This document shows positions 8,895 through 38,539 of a DNA stretch of 64,000 nt, piece after piece; position 1 is the first letter of the stretch; every line of letters begins with the position of its first letter. The notes under the pieces were generated by a model, which saw only the letters and a list, made by a program, of their open reading frames with translations, had not been told where the DNA came from and made no database searches. The position numbers and the translations under genes were made by a program. The DNA comes from a virus, in the IMG/VR virus record IMGVR_UViG_3300005573_000006, positions 27,308 to 91,307 of that record; one strand, written 5' to 3'.

Positions 8895-9580
8895 TTTATT
8901 TTCTCTTCCCAATAATCACCTATTAATCTATTTGCTTCTTCTTCTAACCACAACCTGTTTATACCATCATATTCTATATTTCGCTTCGGGTATGATCCAA
9001 ACCAAAAATGATGCACTACATTACCATAAAATGTCCCACATCCATATCCAGATTGTCTAACTGGTAAAAATAGTTTCTTATCTAAAGATTGCGATATCCC
9101 ATAACCAGATTCATGATTAGCAATATTTAATTCTTTTGTAAAATCTGTCCTCATTTTTTCTAGTCCAATTTTTTTCATTTTTTTCATATTGATAATAAAG
9201 AAATTCTGATTAGCAAATCCGGGTGCATTTCTATTTAATCCTTCAAATGGTATTACCTCTTCAACACCAATTAAATCATATTCATTATTTCTTATTTTAT
9301 CTAACATATCATCAATATTTTTTAATAAAAACACATCGTGTTCTATATAAACCGCTATTGGTGTTTTACATTCTTTTGCTAATCCAATGGCAGCATCTAC
9401 CCAAAGATTAGAATGCATATCATGTTTAATAATCTTATATTTAACATCTATCGGTTTATCGTCTTTTTGCTGGCTTATTATTATCTTAGCATTAGAATAA
9501 TATTTTTTGATACTGTCAAGACAGATTTTTAAAAAATCTGGTTGGGCAAAGTAAGTTATTAAAAAAGTTACGTCTTTCAT
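8885..9580 (-). CDS. Glycosyltransferase family 2-like
   Basis: VTFLITYF...LKICLDSI GT-A N-terminus; YIEHDVF (ExD variant); HHFWFGSY. Confidence 0.7.
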   Translation of the reverse strand: MKDVTFLITYFAQPDFLKICLDSIKKYYSNAKIIISQQKDDKPIDVKYKIIKHDMHSNLWVDAAIGLAKECKTPIAVYIEHDVFLLKNIDDMLDKIRNNEYDLIGVEEVIPFEGLNRNAPGFANQNFFIINMKKMKKIGLEKMRTDFTKELNIANHESGYGISQSLDKKLFLPVRQSGYGCGTFYGNVVHHFWFGSYPKRNIEYDGINRLWLEEEANRLIGDYWEEKIKCE

Positions 9581-10392
9581 TTATGTAAATAATTACATTT
9601 TAATGGCCATTTGCCAGCTAATACATTTTTAGTAGCTGCACCATTTCGTTTAAAATGATTTATTTCCCAATCTATAGGTCTTGGATCAAAATCTTGATGA
9701 TAAATACCATAACATTCGTTTTCTCTATCGATATAAATATCATATCCCAACATTTTTGCCCTCAACGCAAAGTTTTTATCTTGACCGCAATATACTATTC
9801 CACATTTTTCTTCCATACCACCAAGTTCTTCTAATATAGTTCTGGGAAAAGCACACCAGTTAAATTCAAAATTTAAATATTGATCCGTGTTTTCTATTTT
9901 TTCTTTAGAGCCACTTTTTCTTTCATCAATTTCTCTAATAATAATATTTTCAGGAAATGTTTCCATTGGTTTTTCAAATATGGTTATTTTACCACAGGGA
10001 TTAATAACCGGTGGAGAATCTATCTTATCTCCCACTCCAGTAAATAATGCATCACCATATGTCCTCCAGTCTTTATAAAATCTTTCTAATGCATTTGGTT
10101 TTATCCATATATAATCTTCTAATACAACTATTAACTCACCACTTGACAGATTAAAACAATCATTATATGCTTCTGGAAGATTCCATACATGATTTTCTTT
10201 TTTAGGACGCGGTTTAAAATGTTTATAGTTAATTTCTTTTACATATTCTTTAACTTCATCTTTCCTTTCTTCATATAGTTCATCGCCAAAGATCCACTCC
10301 ATGTCTTTAAATGTCTGATTTTTTAGAGTATTATAAAATATATCTATAGATCCCCAACGATTAGAAATTGATATTACAGAAATTTTTACCAT
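9577..10392 (-). CDS. Glycosyltransferase family 2
   Basis: KISVISIS, GELIVVLEDY, LGGMEE...QDKNFALRA GT-A motifs. Confidence 0.8.
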   Translation of the reverse strand: MVKISVISISNRWGSIDIFYNTLKNQTFKDMEWIFGDELYEERKDEVKEYVKEINYKHFKPRPKKENHVWNLPEAYNDCFNLSSGELIVVLEDYIWIKPNALERFYKDWRTYGDALFTGVGDKIDSPPVINPCGKITIFEKPMETFPENIIIREIDERKSGSKEKIENTDQYLNFEFNWCAFPRTILEELGGMEEKCGIVYCGQDKNFALRAKMLGYDIYIDRENECYGIYHQDFDPRPIDWEINHFKRNGAATKNVLAGKWPLKCNYLHK

Positions 10393-27318: not shown

Positions 27319-27753
27319 ATGACAAAATTTAAAATATACCCAGAAAAAGGAAACAAACAATATTATTCAGTAATAATATTTGACAAAAAAGCTGATATGA
27401 TAAAATATTCATGTGCCATAACAAAAAGACCGTTACATCTATTTGAGGCAGTAGCACATTCATATTACGCTTATTATAAAAGAAACAAAAAATATATATT
27501 GTCAAAGCAAATAGGAAGTATACTGTTTTATAAAAACGGATTTGGAGTAGGAACCGTTGCCCATGAAATAGCTCACGCAACCAATTACTATTTTAATAGA
27601 AAAAAGATAAAATTTAGAATTGGTAATGTTATAAAACCAACAAAACAATGGTTTAAATATGATGAAGCATACGCCCATATTTTAGGATATATGATAAATC
27701 AGTTTTGGAATAAATATAATGGTAAAGTAAAAACTAAATCAGAAAAATATTAA
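27319..27753 (+). CDS. Putative Zn metallopeptidase-like protein
   Basis: VAHEIAHA HExxH with a downstream DEAYA Glu ligand. Confidence 0.55.
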   Translation: MTKFKIYPEKGNKQYYSVIIFDKKADMIKYSCAITKRPLHLFEAVAHSYYAYYKRNKKYILSKQIGSILFYKNGFGVGTVAHEIAHATNYYFNRKKIKFRIGNVIKPTKQWFKYDEAYAHILGYMINQFWNKYNGKVKTKSEKY

Positions 27754-30700
27754 TGAAATTTACACATTTACATGTTCACTCAATGTACTCATTGCTTGAC
27801 GGACTACCAAGTCCGATTTCTTTAGTTGAAGAAACAAAAAAACTTGGAATGGATTCAATTGCCTTGACAGATCATGGAAATATGTATGGAGCAATAGAAT
27901 TTTACAAAGCCGCGAAAGCCAATGGTATAAAACCAATATTGGGTTGTGAAGTTTACATTACCAAAGATATGTTCAAAAAAAGCATTAAAGATGATAACCA
28001 AATTTATCACTTAACATTATTGGCCATGGACAATAATGGATATCATAATCTAATTAAGTTAGTTAGCGAATCAAACATTCATGGATTTTATTATAAACCA
28101 AGAATAGATTTTAATTTATTATCTAAATATAATGAAGGATTAATTTGTCTATCTGGATGTCTTGGAGGAGAATTGTCACAATTATTACTTTTAAAACAAT
28201 ATAGCGAAGCCGCTCAACTTGCCATAAAATATAAAAATCTATTTGGAGATAGATATTATATAGAAATAATGCGACACCCAAATAATAAAGATCAGTGCAT
28301 TGTTTCACCAGAACTTATTAAACTATCATCAATGTTAGATATACCAATGGTAGCCACAACAGATTTACACTACCTTCACAAAAAAGATATCGATACTCAT
28401 GAAGTATTTTTAGCTATTAATACAGGAAAAAACCTAGATAATAAAGATAGGCTTTCTATGAAAGATAGTGACATATTTCTTGCTTCACCAGAAGAAATGA
28501 TAAAAAAATTTAAAGACATACCCGAGGCAATAAATAATACACAAATAATTGCAGATAGATGTAATGTTGATATTAAACTTGGAGAAATAAAACTACCAAA
28601 ATTTAATGTGCCAAAAGGAGAGACGTATGATTCATATCTTAGAAAACTTTGTTTAAATAGCCCTAAAAACAAAAATGAATATTCAGATAGATTAGAATAT
28701 GAACTAAAAATTATTGAAAAAACAAAGTTTGCATCATATTTACTAATTGTTTGGGATATTATAAAATGGGCAAAAGAACATGATATAATGGTTGGCCCAG
28801 GACGTGGTTCTGCCGCAGGTAGTATAATATGTTATCTTTTGGATATTACAAATATAGATCCGTTAAAATATGGATTATTATTTGAACGTTTTATGAACCC
28901 AGATAGAATATCTATGCCAGATATAGATATGGATTTTGACGACACAAAAAGAGATGCGGTTATTAAATATGTGTCAGATAAATACGGACAAGATAATGTC
29001 GCCCAAATTATCACATTTGGCACAATGTTTTCAAGATCTGCAATAAGGGATGCCGGTAGGGCAATGAAATATGATCTTAAAACGTGTGATAGAATAGCCA
29101 AAATGATACCGTTCAATAGTTCATTAGCCGATTCGTTAAACAATGTTAAAGAACTAAAAAAAGAATATGAAGATCCAAAATCTAAAAAACTAATAGACAT
29201 GGCAATGAAACTAGAAGGAGTTGTTAGGCATGTCGGGAAACATGCTTGCGGAGTGATCATATCTGATAAACCAATAACCGATTATATGCCGATTCAGTTA
29301 TCAAAAGAAAAATCAGTAATGTCTCAATATGATATGAAGATTATTGAAGACCTGGGATTATTAAAAATGGATTTTCTTGGACTAAGAAACCTTTCGGTAA
29401 TTTCTGAATGTCAGAAACTAATAAAAAAACAACTTGGTGAAGATGTAAATGTAAACAATATTCCCTTAAATGACAAATTAACATACAAACTATTACAAGA
29501 AGCAAAAACAACTTCTGTGTTTCAACTTGAATCTGATGGAATGAAAAAATATCTAAAGAAATTAAAACCAACAAATATTGATGATATTTCGGTTCTTATA
29601 GCATTATACAGACCCGGTCCAATGAATTTAATACCAGAATATATAGCAAGAAAACACGGAGAAAAAACAATAACATATTTACATCCAAAACTTGAACCAA
29701 TACTAAAAGACACTTACGGTATTATGATATACCAAGAACAACTTATTTCGGCCGTTCAAGCATTAGCAGGCATGACATTGGCACAAGCAGATGTTTTAAG
29801 AAAAGCTGTTGCCAAAAAAGACGCTAAACTTTTGAAACAACAAGAATCTAAATTCAAAGACGGATGTAAACAAAATAAAATAAGTAACAATGTATCCAAC
29901 ACATTTTGGAACCTAATAGAACCGTTTATAGGATACGGATTTAATCGATCACATTCTACATCTTATGCCATAATAGGTTATCAAACAGCATATTTAAAAG
30001 CAAATTATCCGGTTCAATATATGGTGGCAGAAATGAATTCCGATGACAAAATAGAAAGAATAACCGAATTAATGCCAGAACTTGAAAGTATTGGTATAAA
30101 AATAGCCCCTCCGGATATTAATATAAGCGAACAAAAATTTGTCGGAACCGGTAATAAGATATTATTTTCTTTATCGGCCATAAAAGGAATGGGCAAGAAG
30201 GCCATAGAAACAATAATAGAAGAAAGAAAAAATGGGCCATATAAATCTATAGATGATTTTATTTACAGACTAAACGGAACATCTATTACCAAAAAAACAA
30301 TAGAAATCTTAGCAAAATCAGGGGCATTTGATACATTTGGTGAGTGGACTAAAAGAAATCAAATATCAAAGTCGGCAGAACAAATAGCAGAAAGTATAAA
30401 ATTTAAATATAAAGATTTACTTCCACCAATAATCTATTCAAGTGTTAAAACTTCATGGAAACAAATGGTATCTTGGGAAAAAGAACTACTTGGACTATAT
30501 TTAACCACAAATCCGGCGCTTAATTATGCCGTAGAGATAAAAAAACATGGAACCATAGACATAAACAGAATATCTGAATATCAAAATAAAAACATCAAAA
30601 TTGGCGGAGTAATTACCGATCTTAAAAAGATCATTCTAAAAAGTGGCAGAACCTTTTATAACTTTAGATTACAAGATACTACAGGATCAATAAACTTATC

Positions 30701-30818
30701 AATATCAAGCGGTTTATATAATAAAAAACCGTTCAGCACAAACTCTGTAGTAATTTTATACGGTCAATATAAAGATAAATTTAAAATATTTAGTTGCGAT
30801 CTAATAGATTCTTTTTAA
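27753..30818 (+). CDS. dnaE: DNA polymerase III alpha subunit
   Basis: HLHVHSMYSLLDG and ALTDHGN PHP domain; GRGSAAGS; PDIDMDF catalytic motif; KMDFLGL; GYGFNRSH; C-terminal OB fold. Confidence 0.97.
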   Translation: MKFTHLHVHSMYSLLDGLPSPISLVEETKKLGMDSIALTDHGNMYGAIEFYKAAKANGIKPILGCEVYITKDMFKKSIKDDNQIYHLTLLAMDNNGYHNLIKLVSESNIHGFYYKPRIDFNLLSKYNEGLICLSGCLGGELSQLLLLKQYSEAAQLAIKYKNLFGDRYYIEIMRHPNNKDQCIVSPELIKLSSMLDIPMVATTDLHYLHKKDIDTHEVFLAINTGKNLDNKDRLSMKDSDIFLASPEEMIKKFKDIPEAINNTQIIADRCNVDIKLGEIKLPKFNVPKGETYDSYLRKLCLNSPKNKNEYSDRLEYELKIIEKTKFASYLLIVWDIIKWAKEHDIMVGPGRGSAAGSIICYLLDITNIDPLKYGLLFERFMNPDRISMPDIDMDFDDTKRDAVIKYVSDKYGQDNVAQIITFGTMFSRSAIRDAGRAMKYDLKTCDRIAKMIPFNSSLADSLNNVKELKKEYEDPKSKKLIDMAMKLEGVVRHVGKHACGVIISDKPITDYMPIQLSKEKSVMSQYDMKIIEDLGLLKMDFLGLRNLSVISECQKLIKKQLGEDVNVNNIPLNDKLTYKLLQEAKTTSVFQLESDGMKKYLKKLKPTNIDDISVLIALYRPGPMNLIPEYIARKHGEKTITYLHPKLEPILKDTYGIMIYQEQLISAVQALAGMTLAQADVLRKAVAKKDAKLLKQQESKFKDGCKQNKISNNVSNTFWNLIEPFIGYGFNRSHSTSYAIIGYQTAYLKANYPVQYMVAEMNSDDKIERITELMPELESIGIKIAPPDINISEQKFVGTGNKILFSLSAIKGMGKKAIETIIEERKNGPYKSIDDFIYRLNGTSITKKTIEILAKSGAFDTFGEWTKRNQISKSAEQIAESIKFKYKDLLPPIIYSSVKTSWKQMVSWEKELLGLYLTTNPALNYAVEIKKHGTIDINRISEYQNKNIKIGGVITDLKKIILKSGRTFYNFRLQDTTGSINLSISSGLYNKKPFSTNSVVILYGQYKDKFKIFSCDLIDSF

Positions 30819-30822
30819 AAAA

Positions 30823-30900
30823 GGGGGACATTCTATAGCGGACTCAAGTGTCCTAGAATAATCCCCAAGGTTTCTTCCTGTCTCACGCGGGCGGAAGAAT
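30823..30900. terminator. Two hairpins at the convergence of dnaE and a small antisense ORF
   Basis: GGGGA.ATTCTA...TAGAAT..TCCCC and TTCTTCC...GGAAGAA inverted repeats. Confidence 0.5.
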
Positions 30901-30924
30901 ACTTCTATTATATCATAAGCATCA

Positions 30925-30981
30925 TTAGTTTACAAGATCATTACCGTTTGGGCAAATAATCGGAAACTTATGAAATATCAT
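30925..30981 (-). CDS. 18-aa peptide MIFHKFPIICPNGNDLVN
   Basis: Minus-strand TTGATA-N17-TATACT promoter with extended TG, then AGGAGGAGG Shine-Dalgarno 5 nt before the ATG. Confidence 0.5.
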   Translation of the reverse strand: MIFHKFPIICPNGNDLVN

Positions 30982-31133
30982 ATTGTCCTCCTCCTATAGT
31001 ATAGCATACATATACACAAGTATCAACCCCTCATCTTCATAAATTACCTAAAACATAAATTTTGTTCGGAAACAAGTTGTTTTTAAATTCCTTCCTTTTC
31101 TCCCAAACGGGGACATAACATTTCAAGCCTTTT

Positions 31134-31355
31134 GTCAAGACTTGTTTTTATCAACAAGTTGTCCACTTCCCCCGCTTGCATTGACTTCTTTTTTATGCTA
31201 TGCTTTGGTTAGGCAATGTTTTGGTTTCTTTACAAAACTTTAAGATATGTTATAACAACAACACACTTTTTATATATGTCAATAAAAAGTTGTCCACTTG
31301 CTTTGGTTTTTACTTTTTGCTATAATTAGATTAGTAAAGTAAAGTTGTCCACATC
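31134..31355 (+). promoter_or_regulatory. Tandem early promoters with three AGTTGTCCAC (DnaA-box-like) repeats
   Basis: TTGCAT-N17-TATGCT (31176-31204), TTGCTT-N17-TATAAT (31298-31326); AGTTGTCCAC at ~31157, 31288 and 31343. Confidence 0.7.
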
Positions 31356-31391
31356 TTTACTTTTAACAAAGATGTGGCGATGTTCATTAAA

Positions 31392-31415
31392 AACTCCATA
31401 AGCGGCGATGGGGTT
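31392..31415 (+). promoter_or_regulatory. 5' leader hairpin (loop AAGCGGCG) containing the SD-like GGGGT
   Basis: AACTCCAT/ATGGGGTT stem ending 5 nt before ATG 31421. Confidence 0.55.
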
Positions 31416-31420
31416 ATAAT

Positions 31421-31780
31421 ATGAGAACCATTAAAACAGCATTAAGATCGGGTTTTGTCAAGACGCAAGCAACAAGAGTCAGAAGCGGTTTTGTTAGGGA
31501 TATCCAAGATCTAGGTTTAGAGGTTGGAGGTGATCCTTGTGTTTTGACTGAAGAAGAGTTTCGAAGTTATGGCTTTTCTGAACGGACTATTAAGAATGGC
31601 CCAAGATATCTATTGAACAATAAAGCAAGCGAGAAAAGAGGCGAGTTTTATGCGGTAGCTCGTGGAGTTGCTACCGGTGAATTAGCTGAAGAGTTGCAAG
31701 TTCCTGAAAATACGCCGGTTATACAAATCGCTAGAGTTGCAACAAAAAAAGAGATCGGGACGCATTTTTTAACCGAGTAG
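31421..31780 (+). CDS. Hypothetical early protein (first gene after the promoter cluster)
   Basis: 119 aa, internal RSGFV repeat. Confidence 0.8.
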   Translation: MRTIKTALRSGFVKTQATRVRSGFVRDIQDLGLEVGGDPCVLTEEEFRSYGFSERTIKNGPRYLLNNKASEKRGEFYAVARGVATGELAEELQVPENTPVIQIARVATKKEIGTHFLTE

Positions 31781-31836
31781 ATATTCCGTAGCTATGAATT
31801 AAACGCCGCTATTCGTAGCTACTAGAATGTTTATTC
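31775..31836 (+). other. Long 3' hairpin, loop TAAACGCCGCT
   Basis: ~24-bp stem including the stop codon; loop complementary to 31401-31407. Confidence 0.65.
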
Positions 31837-31887
31837 TATTAACTCATCGGAGGTCGGGATGAGTTTTTGAACCAGTAAATTAAAAAC

Positions 31888-32052
31888 ATGGTCAAAATTG
31901 CTATTGAAAAATACAGTAAAAACTTATACCGTGGAATTGGAATTGTAAATGGATTACCGATTATAATTTTTGGAAGCAGTTTCATGAATGTCATTACAAA
32001 AGCCTTGTATGAATATATGAAAAGACGAGCATTTTTTACTGAAGAATGCTAG
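31888..32052 (+). CDS. Small hypothetical protein (54 aa)
   Basis: MVKIAIEKYSKNLYRGIG..., below the ORF-track length cutoff. Confidence 0.5.
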   Translation: MVKIAIEKYSKNLYRGIGIVNGLPIIIFGSSFMNVITKALYEYMKRRAFFTEEC

Positions 32053-32060
32053 TATAAATT

Positions 32061-32089
32061 GAAGGATCTTATTAAAGGTCCTTCTTTTA
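32061..32089 (+). terminator. Rho-independent terminator
   Basis: GAAGGATCT/AGGTCCTTC stem followed by a T tract. Confidence 0.6.
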
Positions 32090-32093
32090 TTAT

Positions 32094-32282
32094 ATGATCA
32101 AAATAAATAAGAAAATCGCACTTTTTGATAAACCAAAAGACATTTTAGAAGTTATTATGATCAAAAGAAAATATAGATTAAAAGAAATAAAAAAAGAAGG
32201 AAATATAATTACAAAAACATATATGAAGGGCCGGAGATATTGGAAAATAAGCTATCCAGATAACTATATTGGTCAAATATGA
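32094..32282 (+). CDS. Hypothetical protein
   Basis: ORF in the early-gene array. Confidence 0.55.
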   Translation: MIKINKKIALFDKPKDILEVIMIKRKYRLKEIKKEGNIITKTYMKGRRYWKISYPDNYIGQI

Positions 32283-32385
32283 AGATGATTATAGAATTAA
32301 CCGCACTTTTGCGGAGATTTAACCATTATTTGTATATATTATTCCATCAAAAAGACATATAGAAGAAAATAAGAAGGGGGGTATT

Positions 32386-32538
32386 ATGAATAAAAAGAAG
32401 AAGAAAAATAGACAGTATATAGCATGTATTTGGTGCGGAAAAGACATAAATAAGAAATATGCCAAATACTATTCAGATAAATGTAGAAGTGAAGCGTTGG
32501 GACAAAAGTTAGAAGGGAGGTGTTATTATGAGCAATAG
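32386..32538 (+). CDS. Small Zn-finger-like protein
   Basis: G-rich SD; CIWCG...YYSDKC. Confidence 0.5.
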   Translation: MNKKKKKNRQYIACIWCGKDINKKYAKYYSDKCRSEALGQKLEGRCYYEQ

Positions 32539-32779
32539 AGATAAAAGACCAAAAAGATCAAAATATATTAAGTGCCCGCTTTGCGGGGAGAAGTTAGACA
32601 GTATAATGGAATGGGTAAATACCACGATCGGATATGAAAGAGATTTAAAGACCGGAGATATTCTTCATACAAGAGAAGGAGATTATAGCGATTTTGAGGC
32701 TTATAGTTGCCCGGAATGCGGAGAAGATTTAGATGAAAAAACATGTAAAAAGATAAATAAAATGTTATGGGGTATTTAG
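32528..32779 (+). CDS. Zn-ribbon protein
   Basis: CPLCG...CPECG; GGAGGT SD. Confidence 0.75.
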   Translation: MSNRDKRPKRSKYIKCPLCGEKLDSIMEWVNTTIGYERDLKTGDILHTREGDYSDFEAYSCPECGEDLDEKTCKKINKMLWGI

Positions 32780-32793
32780 AAAGGAGGTGAAAT

Positions 32794-32988
32794 ATGAAAA
32801 AGCCAAAAGCCGTATTTGTAAAACAAAATAATGGAGGTTCGTATAAGTTAGAAATATATCTTGTGGAGAATGCCACGGATGAACAAAATGCATGGGTCGA
32901 TGCACAAGGAAAAATAGTATATGATTATGAATTAAATGGCGTTAAAGCCGATCTAAAAAAAGACGGATTTAATGTTGTTGTAAAATGA
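32794..32988 (+). CDS. Hypothetical protein
   Basis: AGGAGGTG SD. Confidence 0.7.
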   Translation: MKKPKAVFVKQNNGGSYKLEIYLVENATDEQNAWVDAQGKIVYDYELNGVKADLKKDGFNVVVK

Positions 32989-33161
32989 GACAATTAACAT
33001 CCGCACAAAAGAAGTTATTAGACAAAACATTGAAAAATAATCCAGAAATAAGAGAATGTGATGATTTACCAGATGAAGTTTGGGATATGATAGTAGAGCT
33101 TAATGATACCGAGATATTATATGATGAGGTTAATAAATATATCAGACAAAAAGATTTATAA
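32985..33161 (+). CDS. Small hypothetical protein (58 aa)
   Basis: ATGA overlap with the upstream stop; MRQLTSAQKKLL... Confidence 0.6.
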   Translation: MRQLTSAQKKLLDKTLKNNPEIRECDDLPDEVWDMIVELNDTEILYDEVNKYIRQKDL

Positions 33162-33211
33162 ATGAACTTTGATAACTGAATACATTTTAAGGAATATAGG
33201 GGCAAAATAAA

Positions 33212-33406
33212 ATGAGCAAAATATATTGTATTGAGCTAAGCAAGGATGAAGAATTAATGGCAGAAGATATGGGGTTAGAAGATTTTATAGAAACAGATGA
33301 AGATGAAAGAATCTTCTGCCGTAAATGCGGGAAGGATATAACAGATGAAGGATTATCAGAAGATATTTGCCGCAAATGTGGGCTAGAAATGGGGGTTTAT
33401 GACTAA
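33212..33406 (+). CDS. Acidic Zn-finger protein
   Basis: Two CRKCG motifs. Confidence 0.7.
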   Translation: MSKIYCIELSKDEELMAEDMGLEDFIETDEDERIFCRKCGKDITDEGLSEDICRKCGLEMGVYD

Positions 33407-33623
33407 AAAAGACTTTATTAAAATTGCGGAGATTATTAAGAGTATAATTGGACAACTTGGAAGAGTAAATGTTAAGACCGAAGATGGAAATACTATTGAA
33501 GATATATCCGAGTTTATTATTGATGAGTTTGCTTATGGTTTAGAAGATACAAATGAAAGGTTTGATGAAAATAAGTTCAGAAAATATATCTATAAAGATA
33601 ATAAGTATTACGAAGGTCAATAA
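33399..33623 (+). CDS. Hypothetical phage protein (MTKKDF...RFDENKF family)
   Basis: MTKKDFIKIAEII and NERFDENKF pattern seen in small early phage proteins. Confidence 0.7.
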   Translation: MTKKDFIKIAEIIKSIIGQLGRVNVKTEDGNTIEDISEFIIDEFAYGLEDTNERFDENKFRKYIYKDNKYYEGQ

Positions 33624-33804
33624 TATGGTTTAATAGTTCCTATACTTTAAGATGTATTCAGTAATTAGTGTTTATTATGAAGATATTATTTATATTTTTA
33701 GTTATACTATCCGCCATTTTTGTGTGGACATTCTATAATATATTTTGGGTTTCTGATATTCGGAATATATGTTTGCCAAGAATGGAAGATTGTAGTAAAT
33801 AAAT

Positions 33805-33963
33805 ATGAAAAACCAAAAAAAGACAAATAAACATAAAAACCAGCGAAAAAAAATGACAGAAGAGTTTTATGAGGGCAAAGAAACTTTATGCGGAAATTGT
33901 GGACGAATAGCAACATGGAAGTATGGAGATATTCATAGATGTAATAAATGTATGGGACTATGA
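33805..33963 (+). CDS. Small Zn-finger protein
   Basis: CGNCG...CNKC. Confidence 0.5.
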   Translation: MKNQKKTNKHKNQRKKMTEEFYEGKETLCGNCGRIATWKYGDIHRCNKCMGL

Positions 33964-34151
33964 CACATAAAAAAGAATGGACAATAAATATAATACTAAT
34001 TATTTTATCATTTATAATAGTTTTTGGGTTTCTCAAATGGCAAATAGAAGAAAATAAGGGATTTTGTTTAAAGATTATGAGCGGATATTTTATGTCAACT
34101 AATAAAGATTTAGAAGAGTACCAAAAATATATGAAATATTATAATAAATAG
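33960..34151 (+). CDS. Small membrane protein
   Basis: Hydrophobic segment INIILIILSFIIVFGFL; ATGA overlap. Confidence 0.6.
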   Translation: MTHKKEWTINIILIILSFIIVFGFLKWQIEENKGFCLKIMSGYFMSTNKDLEEYQKYMKYYNK

Positions 34152-34165
34152 AAAGGAGGTGAAAT

Positions 34166-34339
34166 ATGAAAAAATATAGTGTTTCTTGGAGTGAAAAACA
34201 TACATTGCCGGGTATAGAAGCGAATTCTCCAGAAGAGGCAATAGAAAAAGTCCAAAACGGAGAAATAACGGAAGAGTCCGAGAATGGAGATGTTATTGAG
34301 CTAGTTGATGGGCCCGAGGCCGTAGAAGAAGGTATATAA
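34166..34339 (+). CDS. Small acidic protein (EAxSxEEA motif)
   Basis: AGGAGGTG SD; IEANSPEEAIEKV. Confidence 0.7.
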   Translation: MKKYSVSWSEKHTLPGIEANSPEEAIEKVQNGEITEESENGDVIELVDGPEAVEEGI

Positions 34340-34341
34340 TA

Positions 34342-34359
34342 ACACAAGCGGCCATGTGT
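34342..34359 (+). promoter_or_regulatory. 5' leader hairpin, loop AGCGGCCA
   Basis: ACACA/TGTGT stem ending 10 nt before ATG 34370. Confidence 0.5.
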
Positions 34360-34369
34360 ATTTTTACAA

Positions 34370-34624
34370 ATGAAAACAGTCCGTTTTAAGATAGCAGATG
34401 TATTTGAAGTAGAAGTAGAAAACGATGCAACACAAGACGAAATAGACGCAGCAGTTGATGCGGAACTAAAAAAATTAGCAGAAGCCCCATTTTTTCTGGA
34501 AAATGCAGAAGTTGAGTTTGTAGACGAAGAAGAAAATGAAGAAGAAAATTACGAAGATTTATCAGTCGAAGACCTAGATGAAAATTCCTCAGAAGAGAAT
34601 TTAGAAGAAGATACAGAGGAATAA
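34370..34624 (+). CDS. Highly acidic small protein
   Basis: 84 aa with a Glu/Asp-rich C-terminal tail. Confidence 0.8.
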   Translation: MKTVRFKIADVFEVEVENDATQDEIDAAVDAELKKLAEAPFFLENAEVEFVDEEENEEENYEDLSVEDLDENSSEENLEEDTEE

Positions 34625-34627
34625 ATT

Positions 34628-34676
34628 ACCGTGAGTTGCCATGATATTTGGCCGCATGTCGTGGCAACAATTCGGT
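34628..34676 (+). other. Long 3' hairpin, loop TTTGGCCGCA
   Basis: GTTGCCATGATA/TGTCGTGGCAAC stem; loop complementary to 34348-34354. Confidence 0.65.
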
Positions 34677-34689
34677 TATTTATTATAAT

Positions 34690-35262
34690 ATGAAAAAGGT
34701 TCATAATAAAATAGAAAAAAATATAATGGAAAAAGAATTTGTTTGTAACCGGATGCCTATTTGTGCAGTGGCCGGATATGTAATAGCAAAAAGAGCCAAA
34801 TATAATGATAATTTATCAAAATCATTGGGAATGGCATTGGCCACTAAATTAGCAATTTGGAAGAATGCCGGATGGGGATACGGAGTTTCAACGAATAAAC
34901 ATTATGGAGCCGGAAGAGTAAGTGAACAACAATTATCTAATGAAGATAAATTAAATGCCGGTTTAGTTGATGAAATAGATTTTTGTGGTGAAAACTTTTT
35001 GGTAAAAGACAATTTAGTAGTGGGAGAACTACATGTAAAAAAAGAATTTAATTGTTCACCAGATAAATTTGATTTTCAAGTCCATAAAATAGAAAGCGGT
35101 GGTGGTAATTTTAAGAAGTTAGTAGAAGCAATCAATGAAAAATTAGATAGTGAAGAGTGGAAAAATTATGATTTAAGCAAGGCGGTATTTGGTAAATCTT
35201 TTATGAGATTTTGGAAACAAATTAGAGATGACTTTCGTAAAACAGAATTTTATCATGAATAA
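34690..35262 (+). CDS. Hypothetical protein
   Basis: Likely start 34690 or 34726. Confidence 0.75.
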   Translation: MKKVHNKIEKNIMEKEFVCNRMPICAVAGYVIAKRAKYNDNLSKSLGMALATKLAIWKNAGWGYGVSTNKHYGAGRVSEQQLSNEDKLNAGLVDEIDFCGENFLVKDNLVVGELHVKKEFNCSPDKFDFQVHKIESGGGNFKKLVEAINEKLDSEEWKNYDLSKAVFGKSFMRFWKQIRDDFRKTEFYHE

Positions 35263-35497
35263 CTTATATGATAAAGACGATATTGAAGAAGTAATACTTA
35301 ATAACTATATAATGCTTTTAACCAGAGCGTTTACATTAAAACCGATCAAAGTAACAAAAACAGATCATAAAAAAAGAAAAAAGTATTACCACGAATATTA
35401 TTTAAGAAGAAAAAAAGATCCAGATTTTGTTATGAAAAGAAGAATGAGAACAAGAAGATGGTATAAAAATAATAAAAAACATAAACTAAACAATTAA
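35255..35497 (+). CDS. Basic hypothetical protein
   Basis: K/R/Y-rich C-terminus. Confidence 0.6.
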   Translation: MNNLYDKDDIEEVILNNYIMLLTRAFTLKPIKVTKTDHKKRKKYYHEYYLRRKKDPDFVMKRRMRTRRWYKNNKKHKLNN

Positions 35498-35526
35498 CCG
35501 CTACGGTGAATGTTTATATATTTATT

Positions 35527-38386: not shown

Positions 38387-38461
38387 TGAGCTGTAAATTA
38401 AAAAGTATATAAAATAACACAAATCGCCCTTTTGTCAAGAATAGAAGAAGAAATAAAAGAT

Positions 38462-38530
38462 CGCGGCTTGGTGTAATGGTAACACGTGAGGTTCATATCC
38501 TCAAGATCACGTTCAAATCGTGGGCCGCAA
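38462..38530 (+). tRNA. tRNA-Met (CAT), initiator-like C1:A72 mismatch, short T-stem, no encoded CCA
   Basis: Acceptor CGCGGCT/GGCCGCA, D-arm GTGT-AATGGTA-ACAC, anticodon arm TGAGG-TTCATAT-CCTCA, T-arm CACG-TTCAAAT-CGTG. Confidence 0.85.
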
Positions 38531-38539
38531 CATCAAATA

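What the first reader, a model, noticed from the sequence alone, without database searches (positions are those of the whole stretch)
34342..34676. Second kissing-loop unit around the hyper-acidic protein gene, with a compensated loop sequence
Seen: 5' hairpin ACACA-AGCGGCCA-TGTGT (8-nt loop, as in unit 1) ending 10 nt before ATG 34370; 3' hairpin just after the stop with loop TTTGGCCGCA. GCGGCCA (34348-54) pairs 7/7 with TGGCCGC (34649-55). Stems and ORF are unrelated to unit 1. The GCGGC:GCCGC core is shared and the next pair switches from G:C to C:G, a natural compensatory change. The phage tRNA acceptor stem is also GCGGC:GCCGC (GGCCGCA identical), which may be chance or mimicry.
Basis: seen in the sequence. 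Interest (0 to 1): 0.75.

Follow-up and report, generated by a model that had tools for sequence, protein, structure and literature searches.

The report
Second kissing-hairpin bracket around phage gene
A small acidic-protein gene of an uncultured hot-spring phage sits between a weak hairpin just before its start codon and a strong hairpin at its stop codon whose loop tips are exact 7-base complements, so the two ends of this gene's RNA probably pair; direct comparative proof exists only for the sister unit 3 kb upstream.

Summary
The 5' hairpin is 34342-34359 with 8-nt loop AGCGGCCA and ends 10 nt before ATG 34370. The ORF is 84 aa. The 3' hairpin is 34622-34682, starts at the stop codon, and has a 13-bp inner stem and 8-nt loop UUGGCCGC. 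GCGGCCA pairs 7/7 with UGGCCGC.

Units 2 and 1 are the two strongest loop-loop complementarities in the 91-kb genome. They are also the two strongest 5'-flank/3'-flank complementarities among 123 ORFs (0.12 expected, 2 seen).

Unit 2 copies unit 1's geometry exactly: an 8-nt 5' loop paired at positions 2-8, and the 7-mer flush with the 3' side of both loops.

For unit 1, a syntenic relative (L060) changes two loop-loop pairs G:C to A:U on both sides and rewrites both stems.

For unit 2 no orthologous DNA could be reached. The protein has two homologues (P0006, P0007), but their contigs were inaccessible.

Best reading: a cis 5'-3' kissing interaction on the sense RNA that controls translation or stability of an SD-less cistron. 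Its function is inferred.

The tRNA resemblance looks like chance, and the 'compensatory change' between the two units is not an evolutionary one.

The parts
34166..34339 (+). Upstream 57-aa ORF with a strong SD. Its stop codon lies 3 nt before the 5' hairpin, so a terminating ribosome would cover the 5' arm of the hairpin.
34342..34359 (+). 5' hairpin: 5-bp stem ACACA/UGUGU and 8-nt loop AGCGGCCA. It is weak (-3.9 kcal/mol).
34348..34354 (+). 5' kissing 7-mer GCGGCCA, at loop positions 2-8 and 16-22 nt upstream of the AUG.
34370..34624 (+). 84-aa gene: a conserved ~50-aa N-terminal domain plus an acidic tail. It has no Shine-Dalgarno sequence. Two metagenomic homologues show it is a real gene.
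34622..34682 (+). 3' hairpin starting at the stop codon: outer stems UAAAU/AUUUA and ACCG/CGGU, and a 13-bp inner stem (34635-47 with 34656-68) that has two G-U pairs. Energy -25.7 kcal/mol, z -4.75. It is followed by an A/U-rich tail and the next ATG at 34690.
34649..34655 (+). 3' kissing 7-mer UGGCCGC, at positions 2-8 of the 8-nt loop UUGGCCGC (34648-55).
31392..31415 (+). Unit 1 5' hairpin: 8-bp stem and 8-nt loop AAGCGGCG. The 7-mer AGCGGCG is at 31401-07. The ATG is at 31421.
31778..31833 (+). Unit 1 3' hairpin starting at the stop codon: 12-bp inner stem and 11-nt loop UAAACGCCGCU. The 7-mer CGCCGCU is at 31804-10. A separate terminator follows at about 31841-31870.

Best explanation
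The acidic-protein cistron is closed by an intramolecular loop-loop (kissing) interaction on the sense RNA. The 8-nt loop of a weak hairpin lies 10 nt before the AUG. It pairs through 7 G/C-rich bases with the 8-nt loop of a very stable hairpin that begins at the stop codon. The two stems and the 7-bp loop helix could stack into a helix of about 25 bp. That would sit over the zone (-16 to -28) where a 30S subunit must land on this SD-less start.

I take the most likely effect to be a cis throttle or gate on translation initiation. Independent ribosome loading is hindered while the clamp is closed. Ribosomes that terminate on the SD-bearing upstream ORF, 3 nt before the hairpin, can open it and re-initiate.

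Shown: the sequence complementarity, the folds, the rarity, the shared geometry with unit 1, and covariation in unit 1's orthologue.

Inferred: that unit 2's loops pair in vivo, and every functional consequence.
For: - Exact 7/7 complement in two hairpin loops that flank one ORF.
- Ranks first in the genome for loop-loop strength, with unit 1 second. Two such pairs arose in 5 of 300 shuffles, and in 0 of 300 when one partner stem was 10 bp or more.
- Ranks first among 123 ORFs in a hairpin-blind flank test, with 0.07 expected at its strength and 0.12 expected for both units.
- The same test is calibrated on 1,289 ORFs of distant phages: 43 seen, 39.6 expected.
- The geometry matches unit 1 and L060. 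The 5' loop is 8 nt and pairs at positions 2-8. The 3' 7-mer is flush with the 3' side of its loop. The 3' hairpin base includes the stop codon.
- For unit 1, the syntenic relative L060 keeps 100% of 27 pairs with 11 double changes. Two of these are in the kissing helix: GCGGCG/CGCCGC becomes ACAGCG/CGCUGU. Slid controls pair at 24-60%.
- The sense strand folds better than the antisense strand: -25.1 vs -18.0, -8.7 vs -3.8 and -21.1 vs -13.9 kcal/mol, because of G-U pairs.
- Both 7-mers are accessible in the whole-mRNA ensemble, with an opening cost of 1.3 kcal/mol, and the duplex energy is -13.7 kcal/mol.
- No other GGCCGC lies on the + strand between 23365 and 38523.
- The ORF is a real, conserved gene.
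Against: - There is no orthologous DNA for unit 2, so it has no covariation of its own.
- The 5' hairpin is not significant alone (z -0.11), and the MFE of the full mRNA does not keep it.
- The hairpin-blind chance level for unit 2 alone is only about 0.07 per genome.
- There are no RNA data, so transcript ends and co-transcription are unknown.
- Kissing complexes cannot be scored by the folding tools used.
- Cross-pairing between the units is only about 3 kcal/mol weaker than cognate pairing.
- The direction of the effect (repression, activation or stability) is untested.
Confidence: 0.6

Rival explanations
1. The same 5'-3' kissing is real, but its role is closed-loop ribosome recycling. Kissing brings the stop codon next to the start codon, so that terminating ribosomes re-initiate on an SD-less cistron and raise its output.
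For: - In all three cases (unit 2, unit 1, L060) the 3' hairpin base contains the stop codon and the 5' hairpin ends 5-10 nt before the AUG.
- Most genes of this phage, these two included, lack an SD.
Against: - Nothing supports this direction of effect.
- A structured element directly upstream of an SD-less start would more usually hinder loading.
- I know of no bacterial precedent (my own knowledge; literature searches found none).
Confidence: 0.15
2. The kissing is real but serves RNA processing or stability. The stacked helix of about 25 bp would be a substrate for, or a shield against, a double-strand-specific or 5'-end-dependent RNase. This would resemble the hbs or icaR 5'/3'-UTR pairings.
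For: - 5'/3'-UTR pairing modulates RNase Y access in B. subtilis hbs (PMC5737220).
- It creates an RNase III substrate in S. aureus icaR (PMC3868564).
- The long 3' hairpin is a plausible block to 3' exonucleases.
Against: - No cleavage data exist.
- The host and its RNases are unknown.
- Unit 1 already has a separate 5'-terminal hairpin and a separate terminator that would serve plain end protection.
Confidence: 0.15
3. Unit 2 is a coincidence. A G/C-rich 7-mer and its complement happen to flank the gene, the 3' hairpin is just a terminator or stabiliser, and the 5' 'hairpin' is noise.
For: - The 5' hairpin has z -0.11.
- AT-rich 7-nt loop complements between weak hairpins are common: 85 pairs.
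- GCGGC is 2.8-fold over-represented.
- The hairpin-blind expectation for a match this strong is 0.07 per genome.
- No orthologue test was possible.
Against: - Both 7-mers fall exactly in loops, in the same register as unit 1.
- The two top-ranked pairs of the genome both bracket small early genes 3 kb apart.
- 0 of 300 shuffles gave such a pair with a long partner stem.
- The architecture is validated by covariation in unit 1.
Confidence: 0.08
4. It is a DNA-level element. The 7-bp inverted repeats would be crossover cores of site-specific inversion sites (arm-spacer-arm, lox/fim-like) or ends of a small cassette. Identical cores would then co-vary without any RNA pairing.
For: - Each site is an inverted repeat around an 8-bp asymmetric spacer.
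- The spacers are inverted copies of each other over 7 bp.
- Recombination cores must match, so covariation would also be expected.
Against: - The arms of the two sites of a unit are unrelated to each other.
- The arms are rewritten between relatives, keeping only pairing potential.
- G-U pairs favour the sense strand.
- The complete phage genome has no tyrosine or serine recombinase.
- Unit 1 sits at the same syntenic place in L060 and L061.
- No inverted or excised joint appears in the two holder runs, although these are contigs only.
Confidence: 0.02

Closest known systems
icaR mRNA 5'/3'-UTR pairing, Staphylococcus aureus (PMC3868564)
   Same: It is a cis interaction between the 3' and 5' untranslated parts of one bacterial-type mRNA through a short G/C-rich motif of about 7 nt. 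It acts at the translation initiation region.
   Different: In icaR the 3' motif UCCCCUG pairs directly with the Shine-Dalgarno sequence, and the duplex is cut by RNase III. Here there is no SD. The pairing is loop to loop, 16-22 nt upstream of the AUG. The 3' partner sits at the stop codon rather than in a long 3' UTR.
hbs mRNA 5'/3'-UTR 14-bp interaction, Bacillus subtilis (PMC5737220)
   Same: It is a long-range 5'-3' pairing within one small mRNA, and it links RNase access to translation initiation.
   Different: The hbs pairing is a 14-bp linear duplex that overlaps an RNase Y site. It is not a 7-bp kissing of two hairpin loops.
3' CITE / 5' UTR kissing loops of plant plus-strand RNA viruses such as barley yellow dwarf virus (review PMC5893793)
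   Same: A hairpin loop near the 5' end kisses a hairpin loop in the 3' UTR of the same RNA through 5-7 bases, and the loop sequences differ between viruses while staying complementary. This is the closest match in layout.
   Different: That is a eukaryotic system which delivers initiation factors to uncapped RNA. The partners are kilobases apart and the RNA is a viral genome. It is not a bacterial-type cistron of a DNA phage.
Antisense kissing complexes (ColE1 RNA I/RNA II, R1 CopA/CopT) and hok mRNA 5'-3' fold-back (own knowledge)
   Same: Fully paired 6-7-nt loops serve as the recognition step. In hok, 5'-3' pairing locks an mRNA in an inert form.
   Different: Those kissing pairs act in trans between two transcripts. 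The hok fold-back is a linear duplex in a toxin mRNA that is activated by 3' processing.

Membership tests
RNA loop-loop (kissing) interaction | Both complementary segments lie in hairpin loops of the same strand | tested here: met
   RNAfold puts the 5' 7-mer in the 8-nt loop 34347-54 and the 3' 7-mer in the 8-nt loop 34648-55. The 5' hairpin is weak (z -0.11) and is not kept in the full-length MFE.
RNA loop-loop (kissing) interaction | Contiguous Watson-Crick complementarity of about 5-7 nt between the loops, beyond chance | tested here: met
   The match is 7/7, with a duplex energy of -13.7 kcal/mol. It ranks first in the genome.
RNA loop-loop (kissing) interaction | Compensatory change of the two loops in orthologues | tested here: inconclusive
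   For unit 1 it is met: two G:C to A:U double changes in L060. For unit 2 it could not be tested. The homologues P0006 and P0007 exist, but their DNA could not be fetched.
RNA loop-loop (kissing) interaction | Physical complex of the two hairpins | not testable with these tools
   This needs gel shift or probing with loop mutants and compensatory mutants.
icaR-type 5'/3'-UTR translational repression | The 3' element pairs with the Shine-Dalgarno sequence or start codon | tested here: not met
   There is no SD before ATG 34370. The pairing lies at -22 to -16.
Intrinsic terminator (for the 3' hairpin) | A G/C-rich stem directly followed by a U tract | tested here: inconclusive
   The stem is strong, but the tail UUAUUUAUUAU is only U-rich, and the consensus scan did not call it. 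In unit 1 a separate canonical terminator follows the kissing hairpin.
Site-specific inversion sites (inverton) | Conserved recombinase-binding arms shared by both sites, and a recombinase gene | tested here: not met
   The arms are unrelated within a unit and are rewritten between relatives. PF00589 and PF00239 are absent from the complete genome.
Any Rfam family | A covariance-model match | tested here: not met
   Only three sub-threshold chance hits at E 0.13-0.34 in 30800-35500.

The most novel reading that the evidence does not exclude
Early cistrons of this phage would carry private 7-bp 'addresses' that close each mRNA (or each cistron of a polycistronic RNA) into a loop and place the stop codon beside the start codon. 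Translation of SD-less genes would then be gated or recycled cistron by cistron. This would be a bacterial-virus counterpart of the 5'-3' closed loop of eukaryotic and plant-virus mRNAs, evolving by co-variation of the address.
Probability: 0.15. Interest if true: 0.8.

Novelty: new variant of a known kind. Interest (0 to 1): 0.55.

Why it matters
Pairing between the 5' and 3' ends of bacterial-type mRNAs is known from only a handful of cases (icaR, hbs, hok). None of these uses two hairpin loops that bracket the reading frame.

A layout that recurs on unrelated genes, with a different 'address' each time, would be a compact and portable post-transcriptional control module. One copy is already supported by covariation. 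It would also offer a way to study how SD-less genes are gated in phages of poorly known hosts.

Unit 2 matters mainly as the evidence that unit 1 is not a one-off.

Tried and rejected
Searches for relatives:
- Searches of the annotated phage collection and of IMG/VR found no relative. The IMG/VR queries were the acidic protein, its downstream neighbour, the unit-1 protein, the COOH-NH2 ligase, P0006 and the A3 alignment.
- The A3 alignment found nothing in genome contigs.
- 57 dnaE-encoding loci are only 26-47% identical and share no ORF with 30.8-39 kb. They show no excess of flank complementarity.
- The search for homologous proteins returned only the query itself for the acidic protein and for its neighbour.
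- The exhaustive HMMER search found P0006.
The contigs of P0006 (1600 bp) and P0007 (911 bp) could therefore not be read.

Expression and variants:
- No RNA holder is listed. The only holders are two DNA runs that may be the source.
- Their contigs are identical over 31300-34750.

Protein function:
- Pfam and PHROGs gave nothing.
- The AlphaFold model is of low confidence (pLDDT 57), so no fold search was run.
- The Atlas hits are unnamed.

Other candidates in the genome:
- A third flank match, TGGGCAA at gene 9577-10392 on the minus strand, is not in hairpin loops.
- An AT-rich 7-nt loop match around ORF 31888-32052 is within chance range.

Ideas considered and rejected:
- tRNA mimicry was rejected as chance.
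- Promoter-like hits in the region are at shuffle level.
- The GCSGC restriction-site idea was rejected because the motif is over-represented, not under-represented, and L060 has changed it.

Full report
**Context**

The window is bases 27308-91307 of a complete 91,307-bp virus record with direct terminal repeats. The record is 33% G+C. It is held only by two hot-spring metagenome runs that may be its source.

The flagged gene lies in a run of small plus-strand genes downstream of a dnaE-type polymerase gene at 27753-30818.

**Observation**

- The upstream 57-aa ORF ends at 34339.
- The 5' hairpin is ACACA / AGCGGCCA / TGTGT at 34342-34359.
- Ten nucleotides follow, then ATG 34370.
- The 84-aa ORF ends with TAA at 34622-24.

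RNAfold makes the 3' element a single 61-nt hairpin, 34622-34682. Its energy is -25.7 kcal/mol, z -4.75, and 0 of 200 shuffles fold as well. Its outer stem begins with the stop codon. Its 13-bp inner stem closes the 8-nt loop UUGGCCGC (34648-55).

GCGGCCA (34348-54) and UGGCCGC (34649-55) are exact complements.

The 5' hairpin alone is weak: -3.9 kcal/mol, z -0.11. The full-length MFE does not keep it. However, keeping both 7-mers unpaired costs only 1.3 kcal/mol in the ensemble, and their duplex is worth -13.7 kcal/mol.

**Unit 1**

Unit 1 has the same plan.

- The 5' hairpin is 31392-31415, with an 8-bp stem and the 8-nt loop AAGCGGCG.
- The ORF is 31421-31780.
- The stop-codon hairpin is 31778-31833, with loop UAAACGCCGCU.
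- The 7-bp pairing is AGCGGCG/CGCCGCU.
- A separate terminator follows.

In both units, and in the relative L060, the 5' loop is 8 nt and pairs through its positions 2-8. The 3' 7-mer is flush with the 3' side of its loop. The two ORFs are unrelated.

**Is it chance?**

Weak AT-rich hairpins with 7-nt complementary loops are common. There are 85 such pairs within 1 kb of each other, so length alone proves nothing.

- Ranked by stacking energy of the loop complement, unit 2 (-17.8) and unit 1 (-16.9) are first and second in the whole genome.
- In 300 dinucleotide shuffles, at least one pair as strong as -16.9 arose 38 times and two such pairs arose 5 times. A pair with a partner stem of 10 bp or more never arose.
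- A test that ignores hairpins compared the best complement between the 40 nt before the start and the 70 nt after the stop of 123 ORFs. It again ranks the two units first and second. Non-cognate flank pairs predict 0.07 hits at unit 2's strength and 0.12 at unit 1's, and 2 are seen.
- The same test on 1,289 ORFs of 57 distant dnaE-bearing phage loci gives 43 hits against 39.6 expected. The test is therefore not biased, and the feature is not general.
- No other GGCCGC lies on the plus strand between 23365 and 38523.

**Comparative evidence**

The acidic protein has no relative in IMG/VR, the phage collection or the word-indexed protein database.

An exhaustive HMMER search found one cluster, P0006/P0007. 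It is 58% identical over the N-terminal 43 residues and also has an acidic tail. The ORF is therefore a real gene.

For unit 1, I retrieved two syntenic relatives. They have the dnaE C-terminus at 70-73% amino-acid identity, then the same long spacer, then the gene.

L060 carries both hairpins.

- Its 5' loop is AAACAGCG and its 3' loop is UAAACGCUGUU.
- GCGGCG/CGCCGC has therefore become ACAGCG/CGCUGU. These are two G:C to A:U changes made on both sides.
- Counted formally, all 27 pairs of the three helices are kept in every sequence.
- 11 pairs are changed on both sides: 3 in the 5' stem, 2 in the kissing helix and 6 in the 3' stem.
- Partners slid by 1-3 columns pair in only 24-60% of cells, with at most 2 double changes.

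L061 has the same 5' loop but ends before the 3' hairpin.

**RNA or DNA?**

Three of the four hairpins fold markedly better on the sense strand than on the antisense strand, because of G-U pairs. The energies are -25.1 vs -18.0, -8.7 vs -3.8 and -21.1 vs -13.9 kcal/mol.

An inversion-site reading would treat each site as arm, 8-bp spacer, arm, with the spacers inverted. Four points speak against it.

- The arms of the two sites are unrelated, and they are rewritten between relatives.
- The complete genome has no tyrosine or serine recombinase.
- Unit 1 is at the same syntenic place in both relatives.
- The holder contigs show no inverted joint (contigs only).

No Rfam family matches.

**Mechanism (inferred)**

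Most genes of this phage lack a Shine-Dalgarno sequence, including both unit genes. A few small neighbours carry a perfect one.

The 5' 7-mer lies 16-22 nt before the AUG, inside the zone a 30S subunit must occupy. Clamped to a 13-bp hairpin, the weak 5' stem would become part of a stacked helix of about 25 bp.

I therefore favour a cis gate on initiation. In unit 2 it could be opened by ribosomes terminating on the SD-bearing upstream ORF, whose stop is 3 nt before the hairpin.

Two alternatives keep the pairing but change its purpose.

- Ribosome recycling: in all three cases the stop codon sits in the base of the 3' hairpin and the start just past the 5' hairpin.
- RNase control: as in hbs (PMC5737220) and icaR (PMC3868564).

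- The G:C versus C:G difference between units 1 and 2 is a difference between two non-homologous elements. It is not a compensatory substitution.
- Cross-unit duplexes are only about 3 kcal/mol weaker than cognate ones, so orthogonality rests mostly on cis proximity.
- The tRNA-Met similarity is a 5-bp G/C core plus two bases. GGCCGCA occurs four times on the plus strand, GCGGC is 2.8-fold enriched, and the tRNA strand is paired in its own acceptor stem. I treat it as chance.

**Comparison and novelty**

The nearest layouts are the 5' UTR / 3' CITE kissing loops of plant RNA viruses (PMC5893793), and the bacterial 5'/3'-UTR pairings of icaR and hbs.

Unit 2 fails the defining icaR feature of pairing with the SD. 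Two full-text searches found no description of a DNA-phage gene bracketed by kissing hairpins.

Earlier notes of this scan report similar brackets in other phages (e1-5402664, e1-3467267). I did not test those.

**Verdict**

This is a new variant of a known kind. For unit 2 itself the evidence is statistical and by analogy.

Noticed in passing
window 30819-31420: The 600-bp non-coding spacer after dnaE holds three exact TTGTCCAC (DnaA-box-like) copies, at 31159, 31290 and 31345. One abuts a good promoter (TTGCTT-N17-TATAAT, about 31298-31326). A 10-bp 5'-terminal hairpin follows at 31349-31377. The box, promoter and hairpin are conserved in relative L061. This could be an origin or a regulated early promoter.
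   Followed up: partly
window 31861-32052: The next gene (54 aa, 31888-32052) also has a hairpin ending 2 nt before its ATG (loop ACCAGUAAA) and a hairpin ending at its stop (loop UUUUACUGAAG). They share a 7-nt complement, CAGUAAA/UUUACUG. It is AT-rich and within the chance range. The 5' stem reuses the U-tail of unit 1's terminator.
   Followed up: no
window 34648-35262: Database gene calls (P0002, 204 aa) start this ORF at a TTG inside the loop of the 3' hairpin. The likely start is ATG 34690 (190 aa), 8 nt after the hairpin base, again without an SD.
   Followed up: partly
window 24400-48600: Of 46 plus-strand ORFs, only about 8 show an SD-like motif. Four small early genes (starts at 32528, 32794, 34166, 36328) carry a near-identical strong SD (GAAAGGAGGTGAAAT at two of them). 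The rest, dnaE included, have A/U-rich leaders. This suggests two classes of initiation signals.
   Followed up: no
window 38461-38531: By ARAGORN's register the tRNA-Met (CAU) has a C2xA71 mismatch in its acceptor stem and only two G:C pairs next to the anticodon loop. It is neither a textbook initiator nor a clean elongator. The downstream sequence is ACAUC, so the CCA end is not encoded.
   Followed up: no
L060 2091-2303: Relative L060 has a 70-aa ORF between the dnaE spacer and unit 1. The window and L061 lack it, and there it replaces the box-promoter and the 5'-terminal hairpin. The unit-1 hairpin and gene are nevertheless kept intact.
   Followed up: no
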